Positions 13,912 through 18,702 of a stretch of 64,000 nt of DNA are shown piece after piece. The stretch is from Enterobacteria phage GEC-3S: the sequence record HE978309, one strand, 5' to 3'. The notes beneath the pieces are model-generated. The model ran no database searches, was not told where the DNA came from, and was given only the letters and a program-made list of their open reading frames with translations. Within the stretch, counting starts at the first letter, position 1; every line of letters starts with the position of its first letter. Both the position numbers and the translations under genes were made by a program.

Positions 13912-15963
13912 TTACATTTTAAATTTATCTGGCATTGCGTCTACAGATACCAGATCAGCGATAAGCTGACGTAGAGTTGCCTTATCTGCTTTCTTACGTT
14001 CGGTTTTAGCTTCGCTAATGAAGCTGGAGAAAGACAGGTCAGAAGCAGGTTTAACAACACCCTCACGGATGAATGCATCACCGTCCGCGATCATCTCGCC
14101 AGATTCTTGTAATGCTGCCAGTTCACTTTTGTTCATAATATGTGCCTCAATGTAATAAGTTTCTTGTGAATCCGTAGATGCCGTAGCACGAGTTACCGTA
14201 TCAAAGGATAACACAACACCGCGAGGAAGTAAAATCTCGCATTCTTTGTAAGCAAATGCTTTGTTACCTACTGGCAATACAGGGATGTTTTCCGCGCCAG
14301 CAATGGAGAAAGCAACATTAGCGCCACCTTCACCGCGAGATCCAGCCATAGAATCTACCCCAGCAACGGCACTAGCCACGTTTGCATTCCAGCCGCCAAA
14401 AATGTTAGGTGCAAGGGAAGTGCTCACGTAGTTTTTAAAGTAAAACGCTTTTTGCTTACGTGCAGTTTCCCACATTTGAGACCGGAAGTCCATACCACGA
14501 TACAGAATAGTACCCGGATCAAGTTTAACGCCATAGTTAGAGAAGGCATTATCCAGTGCATCGCACATCTTGACCAATTCTTCTGGATCTGCGATTCCCT
14601 CAAACTCTTCCAGCTTGCGATCAGTTAGGAAGTTGTTCATATTGATGTATGCTGCATCGGCATATTCGCTCAACACAAAACCTTCCGCGCCCGGCAGATC
14701 AAGATCAATATCTGCCATCATTTCACCCATGTTGCTAGCAATTGCTTCAAACATACCGGAAGCAACATTACGAAGGGCATCGGTTTTAATCTGGGTGATA
14801 TGACTACGCAGCATTTCAGCTTTTACATCTGCTGGCATAGACTGGTCTACTCGATCCATTGCCAGGGCGGTGATCTTGTTTTCGAATACTTCCTCGCTCA
14901 TGATTTCTTTTAAGCGTTTGATTGATGCTGCGATAACTTCCGCAGACAACGGATCATATTGATCCTGAACTTTTACCAGTTCGCTTACTGCGTATTTTGC
15001 ATCGGCTTCGCTTTCAAAAATAGTACGCATGAAACCATAGCGAGTGATAATATCACTTGTCCAGTCATTCAGAGAACGGGCGGTTGAACGTTCTAAGGCT
15101 TGACGGTCAATCAGAGTATTAAACTGTTTCTTAGGTTCTGCTTCGGTGATATCTTCTTCCGGTTTAAGATTAATTTTTTCTGGATGATTCACATAGTCGC
15201 TGTTATAGGTCGCTTGAGTTTTCAGCATTTCTTCTTTAGTCAAACGAGATTTAGCCGCTACGCGTTGTTCTGCTTCCGCGTTTCGTTCTTCTTCTGACAC
15301 AAGACTAGCCGCATATGCCTCATCTTTAGTCAGAGATTCACCAGTAGCCTTAGATACCCAGCGATCACCTAAATCACTTTCTACTTTAGTGAACAAGGAT
15401 TCATCAAGTTTAATCCCTTTAATCTTATCAATCGCCATCCCGCGACGCTTGACAACAACTAAAGCGATCTTTTTGCTGGTCATTACTTCCTGCTGGAATA
15501 CTTCAAACTTCGGTGTACGACGCACCAAACGCTCTATAACGCGCTTAACCAGTTCGGTCTTACCTTTCATGCGGGATACGTTAAAACGGAACATAACAGC
15601 GTCTAATTGCGCTTTACGGGCTGTTTCCATAACCACATCAAACGCACTTGCCATAACTGCAATCGGGTTATCGCCTAGACCATTTTTAAGCTGTACAATA
15701 CGACCGCTTTTGTTCATTTCGCACAGTACAACATGTGCGGTCTTGTCGCCCATACGAATGATTTTAGGTGTTTTGTTGGTGAAGTTACAAAGACGGACAA
15801 TCACATCTTTATCGCGTGTCTGTACTGCAAAAAGCTGTTTAGGATTCTGCTTAGGCTTTAAGCACTGTACCGGAGCAATACTGCCAAAGTTTTCTTCCTC
15901 TTCCGTCAACAGCCATTTCTCGAAAGATTCAATCATTAGATCGTCGATTTCTAAGTTAAACAT
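13912..15963 (-). CDS. alt: Alt ADP-ribosyltransferase
   Basis: 683 aa (T4 Alt is 682 aa by my recollection); ART motifs ILYRG, YVSTSL, KECEIL; position after gene 54. Confidence 0.85.
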   Translation of the reverse strand: MFNLEIDDLMIESFEKWLLTEEEENFGSIAPVQCLKPKQNPKQLFAVQTRDKDVIVRLCNFTNKTPKIIRMGDKTAHVVLCEMNKSGRIVQLKNGLGDNPIAVMASAFDVVMETARKAQLDAVMFRFNVSRMKGKTELVKRVIERLVRRTPKFEVFQQEVMTSKKIALVVVKRRGMAIDKIKGIKLDESLFTKVESDLGDRWVSKATGESLTKDEAYAASLVSEEERNAEAEQRVAAKSRLTKEEMLKTQATYNSDYVNHPEKINLKPEEDITEAEPKKQFNTLIDRQALERSTARSLNDWTSDIITRYGFMRTIFESEADAKYAVSELVKVQDQYDPLSAEVIAASIKRLKEIMSEEVFENKITALAMDRVDQSMPADVKAEMLRSHITQIKTDALRNVASGMFEAIASNMGEMMADIDLDLPGAEGFVLSEYADAAYINMNNFLTDRKLEEFEGIADPEELVKMCDALDNAFSNYGVKLDPGTILYRGMDFRSQMWETARKQKAFYFKNYVSTSLAPNIFGGWNANVASAVAGVDSMAGSRGEGGANVAFSIAGAENIPVLPVGNKAFAYKECEILLPRGVVLSFDTVTRATASTDSQETYYIEAHIMNKSELAALQESGEMIADGDAFIREGVVKPASDLSFSSFISEAKTERKKADKATLRQLIADLVSVDAMPDKFKM

Positions 15964-16495: not shown

Positions 16496-16524
16496 GTTTG
16501 ATTCTCCTTTCGTTTCGGTATGTG

Positions 16525-16566
16525 TGCATTATAGGGGATCACCGATCCCCTGTCAACAACTTTTTA
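16525..16566 (-). promoter_or_regulatory. early promoter cassette (PeSL-like)
   Basis: TTGACA, spacer GGGGATCGGTGATCCCC (17-nt palindrome), TATAAT. Confidence 0.6.
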
Positions 16567-17082
16567 GTTATTTTTTAATTGCTCATCTTGCAATAGGGAA
16601 ATCACATGCTGGCGATGTTCTTCCGATTGAGGAACACCGAAAAAGTTTGTTTTGTAGAAATACTCTAATCGGTCTTCTCGTGTGCTCTCTTCCATCATGA
16701 TCGCGGGTAGTCCGAGATTTCGGAAACGTCGCTTTTCTGCTGGCGTAAAATCACTGTAATACAACATAGAATCATCATTACCCGCAATGCTAAATTCATC
16801 CTTCATAAAGGAGAATATTGCGTTTAAACGCTGTTTACCGTCCACGATTTCGATCTCATAGCGAGATCCATCATCAATCTTAGCCATTGCGATAGCACCA
16901 ACCGGAAAATCATTAATCAGGTTTTCGATAAACATACGTTTGTTTTCGGTGTCCCATACCAAAGGACGCTGATAATCTGGGTTCATGTTGATATAGCCAT
17001 CTTCTAACCACGCCTCATAAACAGAGATGACAAAGTTTTTAGTATTGGTATAGTAACGGCGTTTAGGCGTTAAACGGTTCAT
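16564..17082 (-). CDS. DUF262 (ParB/GmrS N-terminal-like) domain protein
   Basis: ORF track 16564..17118; start ATG coupled to upstream stop (TAACATG) with AGGAGA RBS; motifs PDYQRPLVWD and IVDGKQRL. Confidence 0.6.
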   Translation of the reverse strand: MNRLTPKRRYYTNTKNFVISVYEAWLEDGYINMNPDYQRPLVWDTENKRMFIENLINDFPVGAIAMAKIDDGSRYEIEIVDGKQRLNAIFSFMKDEFSIAGNDDSMLYYSDFTPAEKRRFRNLGLPAIMMEESTREDRLEYFYKTNFFGVPQSEEHRQHVISLLQDEQLKNN

Positions 17083-17083
17083 G

Positions 17084-17416
17084 TTATAGTCTCCTGAATG
17101 GATCATCACGTAAATCAATATCTTTTAAGAACTCATCCCATGAATGGCGGATATTGTTCTTAATTCTCCAGATAAGCGCAGGGATTGAACGCTCTCCCAT
17201 CTGGAAGTAGGGATCATATGATCCGTATGCCCAATATGCTACTACAATTCCACAATCAGCGCAATAGTATTCTATTTCACTTGCTGGCGACCAAATTCCA
17301 TCAATATGATCGGTGATCCTGCTTTCGATGTTATGGCTATGGCAATCAGGGCAACGGATGCAATGACCTTGTTTATCGTAATTTGACGTTAGCGAATACT
17401 TAAACAATCTCATCAT
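17084..17416 (-). CDS. zinc-ribbon protein (two CxxC pairs)
   Basis: 110 aa; CIRCPDC...CADCG. Confidence 0.5.
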   Translation of the reverse strand: MMRLFKYSLTSNYDKQGHCIRCPDCHSHNIESRITDHIDGIWSPASEIEYYCADCGIVVAYWAYGSYDPYFQMGERSIPALIWRIKNNIRHSWDEFLKDIDLRDDPFRRL

Positions 17417-18129
17417 AGATCCTTATTGGCTTCAAATACTGCCTTTGCGAATCCTCGCGGGGTAAGTGACCTGATAGTCTTTGTTCTGGTTCCTTTCCCG
17501 CCTAGCTTAGAATGCTGTTTACTGTACCCTTTATTAATATGCAACGGTTTCTTTTCTGGCATTATAAAGCCTTGTCCGGTCCATAAGCAAGTCTTTTTCG
17601 GGTACATATCACGGGCGGCGATATACTCAGGAAACGTAGGATGTTTATCATCTTCCGGCAAATAACCGCCATATTCCCACGGATGGAACATGTAATCAGG
17701 CTTACGCCACATACTAGAGATAACGCTTACAGGATTCTCTATCATGTAGGGAACTCCTAGCCATTCACCCAAATAAGCGGTTATTTTAGCTGCCCGTACA
17801 TCATGAACTTGAATCAACGGTCCTTGTTCTCGTTTCTTTCGTTCAAAGTGTGCAGCGCCACTAACAGCTAAATTGGTACACGGTGGGAATGCAAAGATAA
17901 TATCCGGTTTCCCCCATTCAAGGTCCATTGCTCTTTCCAGCCAGTTCAAATCAATCCAGGTGTTTACATAGGTAATGTTTGGATGTTCAAATCTGGTATT
18001 ATACTTTTTGTATGTACCGTGGTCGGCGTCATCCGCATTAAAGCAGACTACCTTATGACCTGCTTTAGCCCATTCTAGACCCATTATCCCCGATCCATCA
18101 AAGTTGCAGAATATTAATTTTTGTTTCAT
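17413..18129 (-). CDS. C5-cytosine methyltransferase-like SAM-dependent enzyme (compact, no obvious target-recognition domain)
   Basis: 238 aa; motif I-like FCNFDGSGIMG, PC motif FPPCTNLAVSG, ENV-like MIENPVS, C-terminal RSLTPRGFAKAV. Confidence 0.5.
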   Translation of the reverse strand: MKQKLIFCNFDGSGIMGLEWAKAGHKVVCFNADDADHGTYKKYNTRFEHPNITYVNTWIDLNWLERAMDLEWGKPDIIFAFPPCTNLAVSGAAHFERKKREQGPLIQVHDVRAAKITAYLGEWLGVPYMIENPVSVISSMWRKPDYMFHPWEYGGYLPEDDKHPTFPEYIAARDMYPKKTCLWTGQGFIMPEKKPLHINKGYSKQHSKLGGKGTRTKTIRSLTPRGFAKAVFEANKDL

Positions 18130-18371
18130 ATACGACCCTTTAACCCAGCACAGATTTTAGTCGGTTCTTTACCGTGCCACATTAAGTAAAGTCCGTTAAT
18201 GCGACCTTGTTTTGTGTGTGATTCTTTTCTGATCTTCTTATAGTGTCGTGCTTCCTCAACTGATTGTTTAGAATACCAATCATAAAGGAAGAGGCACAAA
18301 GGCCAACCATTAGCGGCCTTAATGCAGTTATTAAGAAATTCCTTATTGCGTTTAATTAATTTTCTTTTCAC
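18126..18371 (-). CDS. hypothetical early protein (81 aa)
   Basis: ORF track; overlapping start/stop with neighbours. Confidence 0.5.
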   Translation of the reverse strand: MKRKLIKRNKEFLNNCIKAANGWPLCLFLYDWYSKQSVEEARHYKKIRKESHTKQGRINGLYLMWHGKEPTKICAGLKGRI

Positions 18372-18619
18372 GCTGCCCCCGTTGGTTTGATAGTAACAGA
18401 ATCTAAAAGACCTTTGTTAGCCAGTTCGCGGCAAGTTTTCAGATCCGCAACTTCCCAGCCAGCCGCAATCAGGTTATCAATCAGGCTGTTAGCAACTTCT
18501 TCGCTCATGAAAGAGCACTGTTTGCCGATGGTGTAGCGTACACGCTGTAATTTCAGTTTACGGAAGCCTTTAACGTTCAGGTCTTTAGCGATTTTCTTTG
18601 CGGTTTCGATGTTAGCCAT
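18368..18619 (-). CDS. hypothetical early protein (83 aa)
   Basis: ORF track; first gene after a promoter cassette; GGAGAATCAAAC RBS. Confidence 0.5.
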   Translation of the reverse strand: MANIETAKKIAKDLNVKGFRKLKLQRVRYTIGKQCSFMSEEVANSLIDNLIAAGWEVADLKTCRELANKGLLDSVTIKPTGAA

Positions 18620-18656
18620 TGTTTGATTCTCCTAAGTGGTATCTCGTCTTGATGGT

Positions 18657-18698
18657 TGTATTGTAGGGGAGTTATCCTCCCCTGTCAACACTTTTTAT
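18657..18698 (-). promoter_or_regulatory. early promoter cassette (PeSL-like)
   Basis: TTGACA, spacer GGGGAGGATAACTCCCC palindrome, TACAAT. Confidence 0.55.
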
Positions 18699-18702
18699 AA
18701 AA

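What the first reader, a model, noticed from the sequence alone, without database searches (positions are those of the whole stretch)
16564..18619. Early operon: C5-cytosine-methyltransferase-like enzyme, zinc-ribbon protein and DUF262 (ParB/GmrS-like) protein
Five translationally coupled genes follow one promoter cassette. One (17413..18129) carries C5-MTase-like motifs in canonical order (FDGSGIMG, FPPCTNLAVSG, MIENPVS, RSLTPRGF) but at 238 aa has no room for a normal target-recognition domain. It is followed by a CxxC...CxxC zinc-ribbon protein and a protein with the DUF262 signatures PDYQRPLVWD and IVDGKQRL (the N-terminal NTPase module of GmrSD/SspE/DndB-type proteins). The same window carries denA and cd, which in T4 go with hydroxymethylcytosine DNA, so a C5-MTase would have no obvious substrate on the phage's own DNA. 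This may be a modification or anti-restriction module acting on host DNA or RNA, or a repurposed MTase fold.
Basis: partly seen in the sequence, partly recalled or inferred. Interest (0 to 1): 0.7.

Follow-up and report, generated by a model that had tools for sequence, protein, structure and literature searches.

The report
Known phage Dcm-like methyltransferase cassette
This is an already annotated early-gene cassette of RB49/Phi1-type coliphages; its 238-residue enzyme belongs to a very common family of compact phage DNA cytosine-C5 methyltransferases, and the zinc-ribbon and DUF262 genes beside it are neighbours only in this phage genus.

Summary
Five minus-strand genes (18619 to 16564) follow one early promoter cassette and are translationally coupled.

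The window is a Krischvirus (98-100% identical to Phi1, RB49 and MIZ6). This genus lacks dCMP hydroxymethylase and has ordinary cytosine DNA, so a C5-methyltransferase does have a substrate.

A Drexlerviridae member, phage K42 Dcm, has the same residues. It has been reported to methylate DNA in vivo on its own and to trigger retron Ec86.

The zinc-ribbon and DUF262 genes are absent from all 78 non-Krischvirus loci that carry the enzyme, so a conserved three-gene system is not supported.

Two things remain open: the enzyme's target sequence, and why Krischvirus DNA looks unmodified in bulk assays. Novelty: already known. Interest: low.

The parts
18620..18700 (-). PeSL early promoter cassette upstream of the block: TTGACA (18688), a 17-nt spacer holding the GGGGAG...CTCCCC stem-loop, TACAAT (to 18660), then the AGGAGA Shine-Dalgarno sequence and the ATG
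   Evidence: The PeSL element is defined in PMC2839356.
18368..18619 (-). g1, 83 aa, RB49p190/phi1p190 homologue, function unknown
   Evidence: phrog_14908, E 2.5e-58, unknown function. No Pfam family above cut-off.
18126..18371 (-). g2, 81 aa (GTG start, GTGA overlap with g1), RB49p189.1 homologue, function unknown. It is missing in one metagenomic Krischvirus (L004).
   Evidence: phrog_7065, E 3.9e-38..
17413..18129 (-). Compact Dcm-like DNA cytosine-C5 methyltransferase, 238 aa (RB49p189/phi1p189). Motif I is aa 10-17, the catalytic Cys84 lies in PPC, Glu131 lies in ENP, Lys178/Lys179 stand where motif VIII RxR would be, and motif IX is aa 220-227.
17084..17416 (-). Zinc-ribbon protein, 110 aa (CxxCxxC...CxxC), RB49p188 homologue, function unknown
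   Evidence: phrog_2993, E 1.2e-33. PF08271 matches at E 6.5e-4, below its cut-off. Homologues occur in Felixounavirus and in roughly 60-kb siphoviruses, not next to the methyltransferase.
16564..17082 (-). Stand-alone minimal DUF262 (ParB/Srx-like) domain protein, 172 aa, RB49p187 homologue, with no DUF1524/HNH nuclease half
   Evidence: PF03235, E 3.9e-20. PADLOC NsnA, E 1e-20, with only the N-terminal half matched. A family profile hits the DUF262 structures 9jfl and 7p9k (BrxU). Invariant motifs are YQRxxVW, DGKQRL and NxxGVPQSEEH.
16496..16563 (-). Next PeSL cassette (TTGACA-17-TATAAT with a GGGGATC...GATCCCC stem-loop). It ends the unit and drives the following 59-aa gene.
   Evidence: PeSL stem-loops act as terminators (PMC2839356).

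Best explanation
The block is one PeSL-bounded early cassette in the alt-to-gene-30 hyperplastic region of a Krischvirus (RB49/Phi1 type). Host sigma-70 RNA polymerase transcribes the five coupled genes from the upstream PeSL promoter, and the downstream PeSL stem-loop ends the unit.

The 238-aa product is an orphan, compact, DNMT3-like DNA cytosine-C5 methyltransferase. It should bind SAM through motif I (F10-x-G-x-G). Cys84 (PPC) should attack C6 of a flipped-out cytosine, with Glu131 (ENP) and Lys178/Lys179 holding the base, and the methyl group should go to C5. Sequence contacts would come from the short variable loop at aa 186-207 plus the invariant K-L-G-G-K...T-K-x-I-R-S-L-T-P-R-G segment, not from a separate recognition domain.

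Krischvirus DNA contains ordinary cytosine. The most likely role is therefore sparse, site-specific methylation of replicating phage DNA (and incidentally host DNA), to blunt some host restriction systems.

The zinc-ribbon and DUF262 proteins are independently acquired early genes that are co-transcribed. They are functional, being under purifying selection, but the methyltransferase does not need them. The DUF262 protein is probably a nucleotide-binding ParB-fold protein; its role is unknown.

Shown here: the gene structure, the fold, residue conservation, the family's distribution, and the lack of gene linkage outside the genus. Shown in the literature for a homologue: catalysis-dependent 5mC formation in vivo. 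Inferred: activity of this particular copy, its target sequence and its anti-restriction role.

The confidence of 0.75 covers the combined statement. Family membership and DNA C5-methyltransferase chemistry alone I put at about 0.9, the anti-restriction role on phage DNA at about 0.5, and independence from the two neighbours at about 0.85.
For: Identity of the phage and locus:
- The locus is 98-99% identical to 55 Krischvirus genomes. The protein is 100% identical to Phi1's. RB49 carries the same RB49p187-190 block, with p189 annotated 'DNA methyltransferase'.

Fold:

Family:
- 7,321 protein clusters, 1,159 representatives at 50% identity and 1,523 phage records, nearly all 225-260 aa.
- Across 221 full-length members: Cys84 99%, Glu131 100%, Pro133 100%, Lys178 98%, Arg220 99% conserved.

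Activity of a member:
- Phage K42 'Dcm' is a 711-bp gene with C82, E128, K175 and K176, and its model superposes on DNMT3A. Retron Ec86 escaper phages disrupt it. Expressed alone, it raises 5mC on msDNA by LC-MS, and the quadruple mutant does not (preprint 10.1101/2023.08.16.553469). This is cited as established in PMC12916289.
- The 711-bp gene of the Drexlerviridae phage tiwna has exactly C82/E128/K175/K176 and is 55% identical to the window protein (E 2e-93).

Selection within Krischvirus:
- pN/pS is 0-0.08 for the methyltransferase, 0.02-0.10 for DUF262 and 0.12-0.16 for the zinc ribbon.

No conserved linkage:
- 0 of 78 non-Krischvirus loci have a zinc-ribbon, DUF262, g1 or g2 homologue within 5 kb.
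- Phage kaaroe has an extra 59-aa ORF between the zinc-ribbon and DUF262 genes, and L004 lacks g2.
- PeSL cassettes are known shuffling units (PMC2839356).

Cytosine DNA in the genus.
Against: - No 5mC has been reported in Krischvirus DNA. TB34 DNA showed no detectable modified nucleoside and was not cut by BrxU, which does cleave 5mC DNA. RB49 DNA is cut by HpaII and NheI.
- These assays would miss sparse sites. Host Dcm methylation from the DH5alpha propagation strain was not reported either (DH5alpha being dcm+ is my own knowledge).
- Across the BASEL collection, no simple link was found between phage methyltransferase genes and restriction resistance (PMC8594841).
- CCWGG, the site assumed for K42 Dcm, is depleted in the window (26 observed against 65 expected). 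That argues against full protection of this site here.
- The window protein has the YSxQH type of variable loop, whereas the K42-like proteins have the NPGW type. Specificity therefore cannot be transferred from K42.
- The K42 sequence itself was not available. Family identity rests on gene length, residue numbering and a near relative.
Confidence: 0.75

Rival explanations
1. The methyltransferase, zinc-ribbon and DUF262 proteins form one functional system in Krischvirus. The enzyme lacks a recognition domain and gets its targeting or regulation in trans from the zinc-ribbon protein, the ParB-like DUF262 NTPase, or both. This would be comparable to two-subunit C5 methyltransferases such as M.AquI (own knowledge).
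For: - The order is fixed and the genes are translationally coupled in at least 55 Krischvirus genomes.
- All three genes are under purifying selection.
- The enzyme has only about 30 residues where a recognition domain would sit.
- In one metagenomic contig (L086), a short DUF262 gene overlaps the end of a 357-aa gene with an SPPY motif and a weak PF01555 match, i.e. an amino-methyltransferase-like gene.
Against: - 0 of 78 loci from other phages link the enzyme to either partner.
- Zinc-ribbon homologues sit elsewhere or in phages where no adjacent enzyme is seen. In KP13-27 the two genes are 9 kb apart.
- Other short DUF262 relatives sit next to AAA ATPases or unknown genes, not methyltransferases.
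- An unrelated ORF is inserted between the zinc-ribbon and DUF262 genes in kaaroe.
- K42 Dcm acts when expressed alone.
Confidence: 0.08
2. The enzyme's real substrate is not phage DNA. It acts on host nucleic acid (chromosome, tRNA or another RNA, as DNMT2 does) or on a defence-system nucleic acid, as a host-takeover or anti-defence function. This would explain why virion DNA looks unmodified.
For: - Bulk assays find no modification in TB34 and RB49 DNA.
- The genes are expressed early from a sigma-70 promoter.
- The family member K42 Dcm does methylate a non-phage substrate, the retron msDNA.
Against: - The K42 enzyme makes 5mC in DNA.
- msDNA methylation harms the phage, so it is a host sensing trick rather than the enzyme's purpose.
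- Bulk assays cannot exclude sparse site-specific methylation of phage DNA.
Confidence: 0.1
3. The enzyme transfers a group other than methyl, for example carboxymethyl from Cx-SAM as the phage enzyme CmoX does, or starts a hypermodification pathway. This might be relevant to the unexplained hmC/glucosyl-hmC reported for the Krischvirus SAP.
For: - CmoX is a natural phage enzyme (PMC12783734).
- The SAP modification pathway is unknown.
Against: - K42 Dcm yields 5mC by LC-MS.
- No CmoA, TET or glycosyltransferase gene lies in the block.
- TB34 carries the same five genes, with phmmer E-values identical to those of SAP, yet has unmodified DNA.
- The only local difference between SAP and TB34 is a duplicated promoter cassette downstream of the block.
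Confidence: 0.03

Closest known systems
Phage K42 (KarlJaspers-like, Drexlerviridae) 'Dcm', the trigger of retron Ec86/Eco1; BASEL annotation 'Dcm-like C5 cytosine methyltransferase'
   Same: Same protein family and the same compact, roughly 236-aa architecture. The window's C84/E131/K178/K179 are the same catalytic and binding residues as C82/E128/K175/K176 in K42. The window protein is 55% identical to the near relative in phage tiwna. Both resemble DNMT3.
   Different: The host phage lineage differs (Straboviridae against Drexlerviridae). The variable loop between motifs VIII and IX is of a different type (YSxQH against NPGW), so the target sequence may differ. Activity of the Krischvirus copy has not been tested.
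Canonical bacterial C5 DNA methyltransferases (Pfam PF00145; M.HhaI, M.HaeIII, E. coli Dcm)
   Different: The target-recognition domain of 80 or more residues is missing. Motif VIII RxR is replaced by KK, ENV by ENP, and PCQ by PCT. Motif X is reduced to a C-terminal helix. The protein scores below the PF00145 gathering cut-off (15 against 22 bits).
Eukaryotic DNMT3A/DNMT3B catalytic domain
   Different: The window protein has no PWWP/ADD regulatory domains. Oligomerisation was not tested. The similarity is one of compact architecture and does not indicate close ancestry.
GmrSD/BrxU/SspE-type DUF262-DUF1524 enzymes, PADLOC NsnA and PD-T4-2_A
   Same: The 172-aa protein has the DUF262 N-terminal domain with its three conserved motifs.
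   Different: It has no C-terminal DUF1524/HNH nuclease or any other effector half. It is phage-encoded and early-expressed. Only 7 clusters of this short form were found.
PeSL cassettes of RB49/Phi1 (Arbiol et al. 2010, PMC2839356)
   Same: The block is bounded by two elements, each a sigma-70 promoter with a G/C stem-loop in its spacer, and it lies in the hyperplastic region between alt and gene 30.
   Different: Most described PeSL modules carry a single ORFan. This one carries five coupled genes.

Membership tests
C5-cytosine DNA methyltransferase superfamily | Class I Rossmann methyltransferase fold whose closest structural matches are C5 methyltransferases | tested here: met
C5-cytosine DNA methyltransferase superfamily | Motif I FxGxG (SAM binding) | tested here: met
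   F10-D-G12-S13-G14, at least 90% conserved in alignment A1.
C5-cytosine DNA methyltransferase superfamily | Motif IV Pro-Cys catalytic nucleophile | tested here: met
   P83-C84. Cys is conserved in 99% of 221 members.
C5-cytosine DNA methyltransferase superfamily | Motif VI ENV glutamate | tested here: met
   E131-N132-P133-V134. Glu is 100% conserved. The motif reads ENP rather than ENV.
C5-cytosine DNA methyltransferase superfamily | Motif VIII QxRxR | tested here: not met
   It is replaced by P-K178-K179-T on the corresponding strand. These two lysines were among the four residues mutated together in the inactive K42 mutant.
C5-cytosine DNA methyltransferase superfamily | Separate target-recognition domain between motifs VIII and IX | tested here: not met
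   Only about 30 residues (aa 186-218) lie between the motif VIII strand and motif IX. The whole family is 225-260 aa.
C5-cytosine DNA methyltransferase superfamily | Pfam PF00145 gathering threshold | tested here: not met
   15.0 bits against a cut-off of 22, covering aa 10-100 only. A few relatives do carry a precomputed PF00145 hit.
C5-cytosine DNA methyltransferase superfamily | SAM-dependent formation of 5mC in DNA | not testable with these tools
   Reported for the homologue K42 Dcm in vivo. This copy is untested.
Compact phage Dcm-like family (phrog_757) | Full-length match to the family profile and to a member with the same residues as the characterised enzyme | tested here: met
   phrog_757 matches at E 9.2e-91 over aa 1-237. 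The window protein is 55% identical (E 2e-93) to the tiwna 236-aa protein, which has C82/E128/K175/K176.
DUF262 / GmrSD_N domain (PF03235) | Pfam gathering threshold and the three conserved motifs (YQR..VW, DGxQR, N..G..L/Q) | tested here: met
   73.3 bits against a cut-off of 33.2. The motifs are invariant in the short subfamily. A profile of the subfamily hits DUF262 structures, including BrxU 7p9k.
GmrSD/BrxU-type Type IV restriction enzymes | C-terminal DUF1524/HNH nuclease domain fused or adjacent | tested here: not met
   The protein ends at 172 aa. Only the N-terminal halves of the longer profiles match (phrog_1583 positions 9-183 of 417; NsnA 47-188 of 385). The downstream element is a PeSL, not a nuclease gene.
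Conserved methyltransferase/zinc-ribbon/DUF262 gene system | Co-occurrence of the genes across independent lineages | tested here: not met
   0 of 78 non-Krischvirus loci show it. add nothing in its favour.

The most novel reading that the evidence does not exclude
In Krischvirus the recognition-domain-less methyltransferase does not act alone on bulk phage DNA. Instead it works with the co-translated zinc-ribbon and stand-alone ParB-like DUF262 proteins as a lineage-specific unit. That unit would direct or gate cytosine methylation to a special target, such as the host chromosome, a competitor phage's DNA or a defence-system nucleic acid. This would explain why an enzyme under strong purifying selection leaves no modification detectable in virion DNA.
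Probability: 0.08. Interest if true: 0.6.

Novelty: already known. Interest (0 to 1): 0.2.

Why it matters
The finding matters little as a discovery. The genes are already in RefSeq (RB49p187-190, phi1p187-190), the methyltransferase is already annotated, and its family has a characterised member.

Two points are useful.

1. It corrects a tempting inference. denA and cd do not imply hydroxymethylcytosine DNA in T4-like phages, and Krischvirus uses ordinary cytosine.

2. It leaves real, testable gaps. What sequence does this very common compact phage methyltransferase recognise without a recognition domain? Why do phages that keep it under strong selection, and that also avoid restriction sites to an extreme degree, show no methylation in bulk assays? 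Do Krischviruses trigger retron Ec86, which the preprint places natively in BL21(DE3), a derivative of the E. coli B strains commonly used to grow them?

Tried and rejected
- Sequence search of the 238-aa protein against the PDB found nothing. NCBIfam also found nothing for it.
- I suspected insertions in this locus in the phages ELT3, FL37 and ELT4. The ELT3 case turned out to be neighbouring PeSL repeats joined by BLAST. Only kaaroe has a real extra ORF.
- I checked whether the 79-bp difference between SAP and TB34 in this locus could explain SAP's reported hmC. It is a tandem duplication of the downstream promoter cassette, outside the five genes, so it is unlikely to be relevant.
- I looked for a conserved methyltransferase neighbour of the short DUF262 proteins. 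One weak case (L086) stands against several without one.
- The DUF262 model (pLDDT 73) gave only weak ParB/Noc matches, all with E above 0.03.
- I tried to infer the target site from site avoidance. CCWGG, GGCC and CCSGG are depleted, but this is ambiguous: it could reflect restriction avoidance or decay of 5mC by deamination.
- Literature searches found no methylome or biochemical study of the Krischvirus enzyme.
- The PeSL paper does not mention ORF187-190.
- The K42 Dcm sequence itself could not be retrieved, because it appears only in a figure image.
Full report
**What is there.** On the minus strand of the window there are five ORFs:

| Gene | Coordinates | Length |
|---|---|---|
| g1 | 18368-18619 | 83 aa |
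| g2 | 18126-18371 | 81 aa, GTG start |
| methyltransferase-like | 17413-18129 | 238 aa |
| zinc ribbon | 17084-17416 | 110 aa |
| DUF262 | 16564-17082 | 172 aa, from the ATG at 17082 |

The junctions are GTGA, ATGA, ATGA and TAAcATG, the last preceded by AGGAGA. All four junctions therefore fit translational coupling. A near-consensus sigma-70 promoter, TTGACA-17-TACAAT at 18688-18660, has a GGGGAG/CTCCCC stem-loop in its spacer. It lies just upstream of g1. The next such element (16556-16528) starts seven bases after the last stop codon. Inside the block there are only weak 9/12 matches.

**Where the window comes from.** The 2.4-kb locus is 97-99% identical to 55 phage genomes of the genus Krischvirus: Phi1, MIZ2/3/6, TB34, SAP, kaaroe and others. 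The 238-aa protein is 100% identical to that of Phi1. In Phi1 and RB49 the genes are ORF187-190. They lie in the stretch of small early ORFs between alt and gene 30, and ORF189 is annotated 'DNA methyltransferase'. Other records call it 'Dcm' or 'putative C-5 cytosine DNA methylase', and one calls the last gene 'DUF262 domain protein'.

The promoter cassettes are the PeSLs (promoter-early stem-loops) described for RB49 and Phi1. They are strong sigma-70 promoters whose stem-loops terminate upstream transcription, and they mediate shuffling of the genes they flank (PMC2839356).

**The premise about hydroxymethylcytosine is wrong for this genus.**
- RB49 lacks the hydroxymethylase and glucosyltransferase, and its DNA is cut by the m5C-sensitive enzymes HpaII and NheI (PMC4041780).
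- HPLC/MS found only canonical nucleosides in Krischvirus TB34, and the genus lacks 5hmdCMP synthase and DNA glucosyltransferase homologues (PMC13390438).
- DenA and dCTPase homologues are known to coexist with cytosine DNA in the RB49 and RB43 groups. The presence of C5-methylase homologues there has already been noted (PMC8056088).
- The window itself behaves like unmodified DNA under restriction pressure. Of the 59 palindromic hexamers expected at least three times, 17 are completely absent, including GAATTC, GGATCC, AAGCTT and CCGCGG. Only 8 of 3,864 non-palindromic hexamers are absent.

A C5 methyltransferase therefore has an obvious substrate: the phage's own cytosine DNA.

**The 238-aa protein.** Pfam PF00145 matches only below its cut-off (15 against 22 bits, aa 10-100). 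phrog_757 'DNA methyltransferase' matches end to end at E 9e-91. An AlphaFold model built on 22 homologues is confident (pLDDT 88, pTM 0.87).

The family is very large and uniformly compact:
- 7,321 clusters at 90% identity.
- 1,159 representatives at 50% identity.
- 1,523 phage records, in T1-like Drexlerviridae, Dhillonvirus, rV5-like and phAPEC8-like myoviruses, Klebsiella siphoviruses of about 49 kb and others. Nearly all are 225-260 aa.

Across 221 full-length members the conservation is Cys84 99%, Glu131 100%, Pro133 100%, Lys178 98% and Arg220 99%. The stretch at aa 186-207, between motif VIII and motif IX, is among the most variable.

The protein departs from the canonical definition in three ways: KK replaces RxR in motif VIII, ENP replaces ENV, and motif X is vestigial.

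**A characterised relative.** A preprint on retron Ec86 (10.1101/2023.08.16.553469) isolated escaper mutants of the Drexlerviridae phage K42.
- All four escapers disrupted a 711-bp 'dcm' gene.
- The authors modelled the protein, superposed it on DNMT3A and picked C82, E128, K175 and K176 as the key residues.
- Expressing the gene alone raised 5mC on the retron msDNA (LC-MS) and was toxic only with the retron present. The quadruple mutant was inert.
- They report that 34 of 35 Ec86-sensitive phages encode such a gene.
- A later paper treats this as established (PMC12916289).

The 711-bp gene of the Drexlerviridae phage tiwna encodes a 236-aa protein with exactly C82, E128, K175 and K176. It is 55% identical to the window protein (E 2e-93). 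The copy in the BASEL phage FritzSarasin, 99.3% identical to tiwna's, is annotated 'Dcm-like C5 cytosine methyltransferase'.

I could not obtain the K42 sequence itself, so family identity is an inference from gene length, residue numbering and this near relative.

The CCWGG specificity stated in that preprint is assumed by analogy with E. coli Dcm. It is supported only by mutating the msDNA motif. The variable loop is also of a different type in the window protein (YSxQH) than in the K42-like proteins (NPGW). The target sequence of the Krischvirus enzyme is therefore unknown.

**The neighbours.** The 172-aa protein is a bona fide DUF262 domain: PF03235 at 73 bits, and a subfamily profile hits the DUF262 structures 9jfl and BrxU 7p9k. 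It matches only the N-terminal halves of longer defence proteins (phrog_1583 positions 9-183 of 417; NsnA 47-188 of 385). It has no nuclease half. Its short form is rare, with seven clusters found, and it carries invariant YQRxxVW, DGKQRL and NxxGVPQSEEH motifs. The model is moderate (pLDDT 73) and resembles ParB/Noc CTPase domains only weakly.

The 110-aa protein is a CxxCxxC...CxxC zinc ribbon (phrog_2993). Its homologues occur in Felixounavirus and in siphoviruses of about 60 kb. g1 and g2 have no informative matches.

**Is it a three-gene system?**
- I fetched 80 viral loci encoding relatives of the methyltransferase, with 5-kb flanks. The two Krischvirus loci have all the partners. None of the 78 others has a homologue of the zinc ribbon, DUF262, g1 or g2 (phmmer E below 1e-3).
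- Klebsiella phage KP13-27 has both the enzyme and a zinc-ribbon homologue, but they lie 9 kb apart.
- Contexts of the short DUF262 relatives are heterogeneous. One overlaps an SPPY-motif gene that weakly resembles an amino-methyltransferase (L086), two sit near an AAA ATPase, and the others are next to unknown genes.
- Within the genus the block is itself modular. kaaroe has an extra 59-aa ORF between the zinc-ribbon and DUF262 genes, and a metagenomic Krischvirus lacks g2.
- All three genes are under purifying selection (pN/pS 0-0.16), so they are functional.

The linkage looks like shared residence in one PeSL cassette rather than a conserved system.

**Most likely mechanism.** The genes are transcribed early from the PeSL promoter. 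The enzyme uses SAM, with Cys84 as nucleophile and Glu131 and Lys178/179 positioning the flipped cytosine. It recognises a short sequence through the aa 186-227 segment. It methylates replicating phage DNA at sparse sites as partial protection from restriction.

Evidence against an important protective role:
- Bulk assays on TB34 and RB49 were negative.
- BASEL found no correlation between methyltransferase genes and restriction resistance.
- CCWGG is depleted in the window.

The bulk assays would not see methylation of roughly 0.5% of cytosines. Host Dcm marks from the DH5alpha propagation strain were not reported either (DH5alpha being dcm+ is my own knowledge).

Confidence is high that this is a member of the compact Dcm-like DNA C5-methyltransferase family. 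It is moderate that the enzyme methylates phage DNA for anti-restriction. It is low for any specific role of the zinc-ribbon and DUF262 proteins.

**Verdict.** The genes and their annotation already exist in public records, and the enzyme family has a characterised member. Novelty is 'already known' and interest is low. The residual open questions are the enzyme's specificity and its actual in vivo target in Krischvirus.

Noticed in passing
L002 (phage SAP, OZ034687.1) about 748-826, against L001 (TB34) and window 16496-16563: SAP and TB34 are reported as 99.96% identical, yet SAP is said to carry hmC/glucosyl-hmC and TB34 plain cytosine. In this locus they differ by a 79-bp tandem duplication of the PeSL promoter cassette immediately downstream of the DUF262 gene. 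SAP annotates a spurious 117-nt ORF there. The five genes gave identical phmmer E-values in the two phages.
   Followed up: partly
window 1-64000: Restriction-site avoidance is extreme. Of 59 palindromic hexamers expected at least 3 times, 17 are absent (GAATTC expected 18.8, GGATCC 16.6, CCGCGG 12.9, AAGCTT 12.7 and others), against 8 of 3,864 non-palindromic hexamers. All 64 palindromic hexamers together give 691 observed against 1,046 expected. Observed/expected is 0.40 for CCWGG, 0.40 for GGCC and 0.28 for CCSGG, while GATC (1.05) and GCTAGC (1.19) are not avoided.
   Followed up: partly
L090 (phage kaaroe, MN850574.1) 1082-1261; L004: The cassette is modular within the genus. kaaroe has an extra 59-aa ORF inserted between the zinc-ribbon and DUF262 genes. 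The metagenomic Krischvirus L004 lacks g2 and matches only part of g1.
   Followed up: partly
L086 2953-4507 (Logan ERR11525653 contig): A 168-aa short DUF262 protein, 46% identical to the window's, overlaps by 26 nt the end of a 357-aa gene with an FTSPPYF motif and a weak PF01555 (N6/N4 DNA methylase) match at E 0.0012. This is the only other case seen of a short DUF262 gene next to a methyltransferase-like gene.
   Followed up: partly
window 18368-18619 (g1): The 83-aa first gene has a weak local match (E 2.5e-5, aa 12-75) to positions 722-785 of the PADLOC model RT_UG35, a defence-associated reverse transcriptase. It has no other annotation.
   Followed up: no
alignment A1 columns for aa 186-207 of the 238-aa protein; family set: The short loop between motifs VIII and IX comes in discrete types: a YSxQH-like type in 97 sequences including the window's, an NPGW type in 25 including the K42-like Drexlerviridae copies, and other types in 100. 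This loop may be what sets target specificity in a family that lacks a recognition domain.
   Followed up: partly
window 13912-15963 and the equivalent Phi1 ORF183-184 (L092 13292-16246): Immediately downstream of the cassette region lie a 683-aa Alt-like ADP-ribosyltransferase gene and a second gene annotated as an ADP-ribosyltransferase.
   Followed up: no
whole locus; literature: Krischviruses are routinely grown on E. coli B strains (RB49 on E. coli B, MIZ phages on E. coli B). The retron preprint states that the B derivative BL21(DE3) natively carries retron Ec86, which is triggered by a homologue of this methyltransferase. Whether Krischviruses evade or tolerate Ec86 is not addressed in the papers read.
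   Followed up: no
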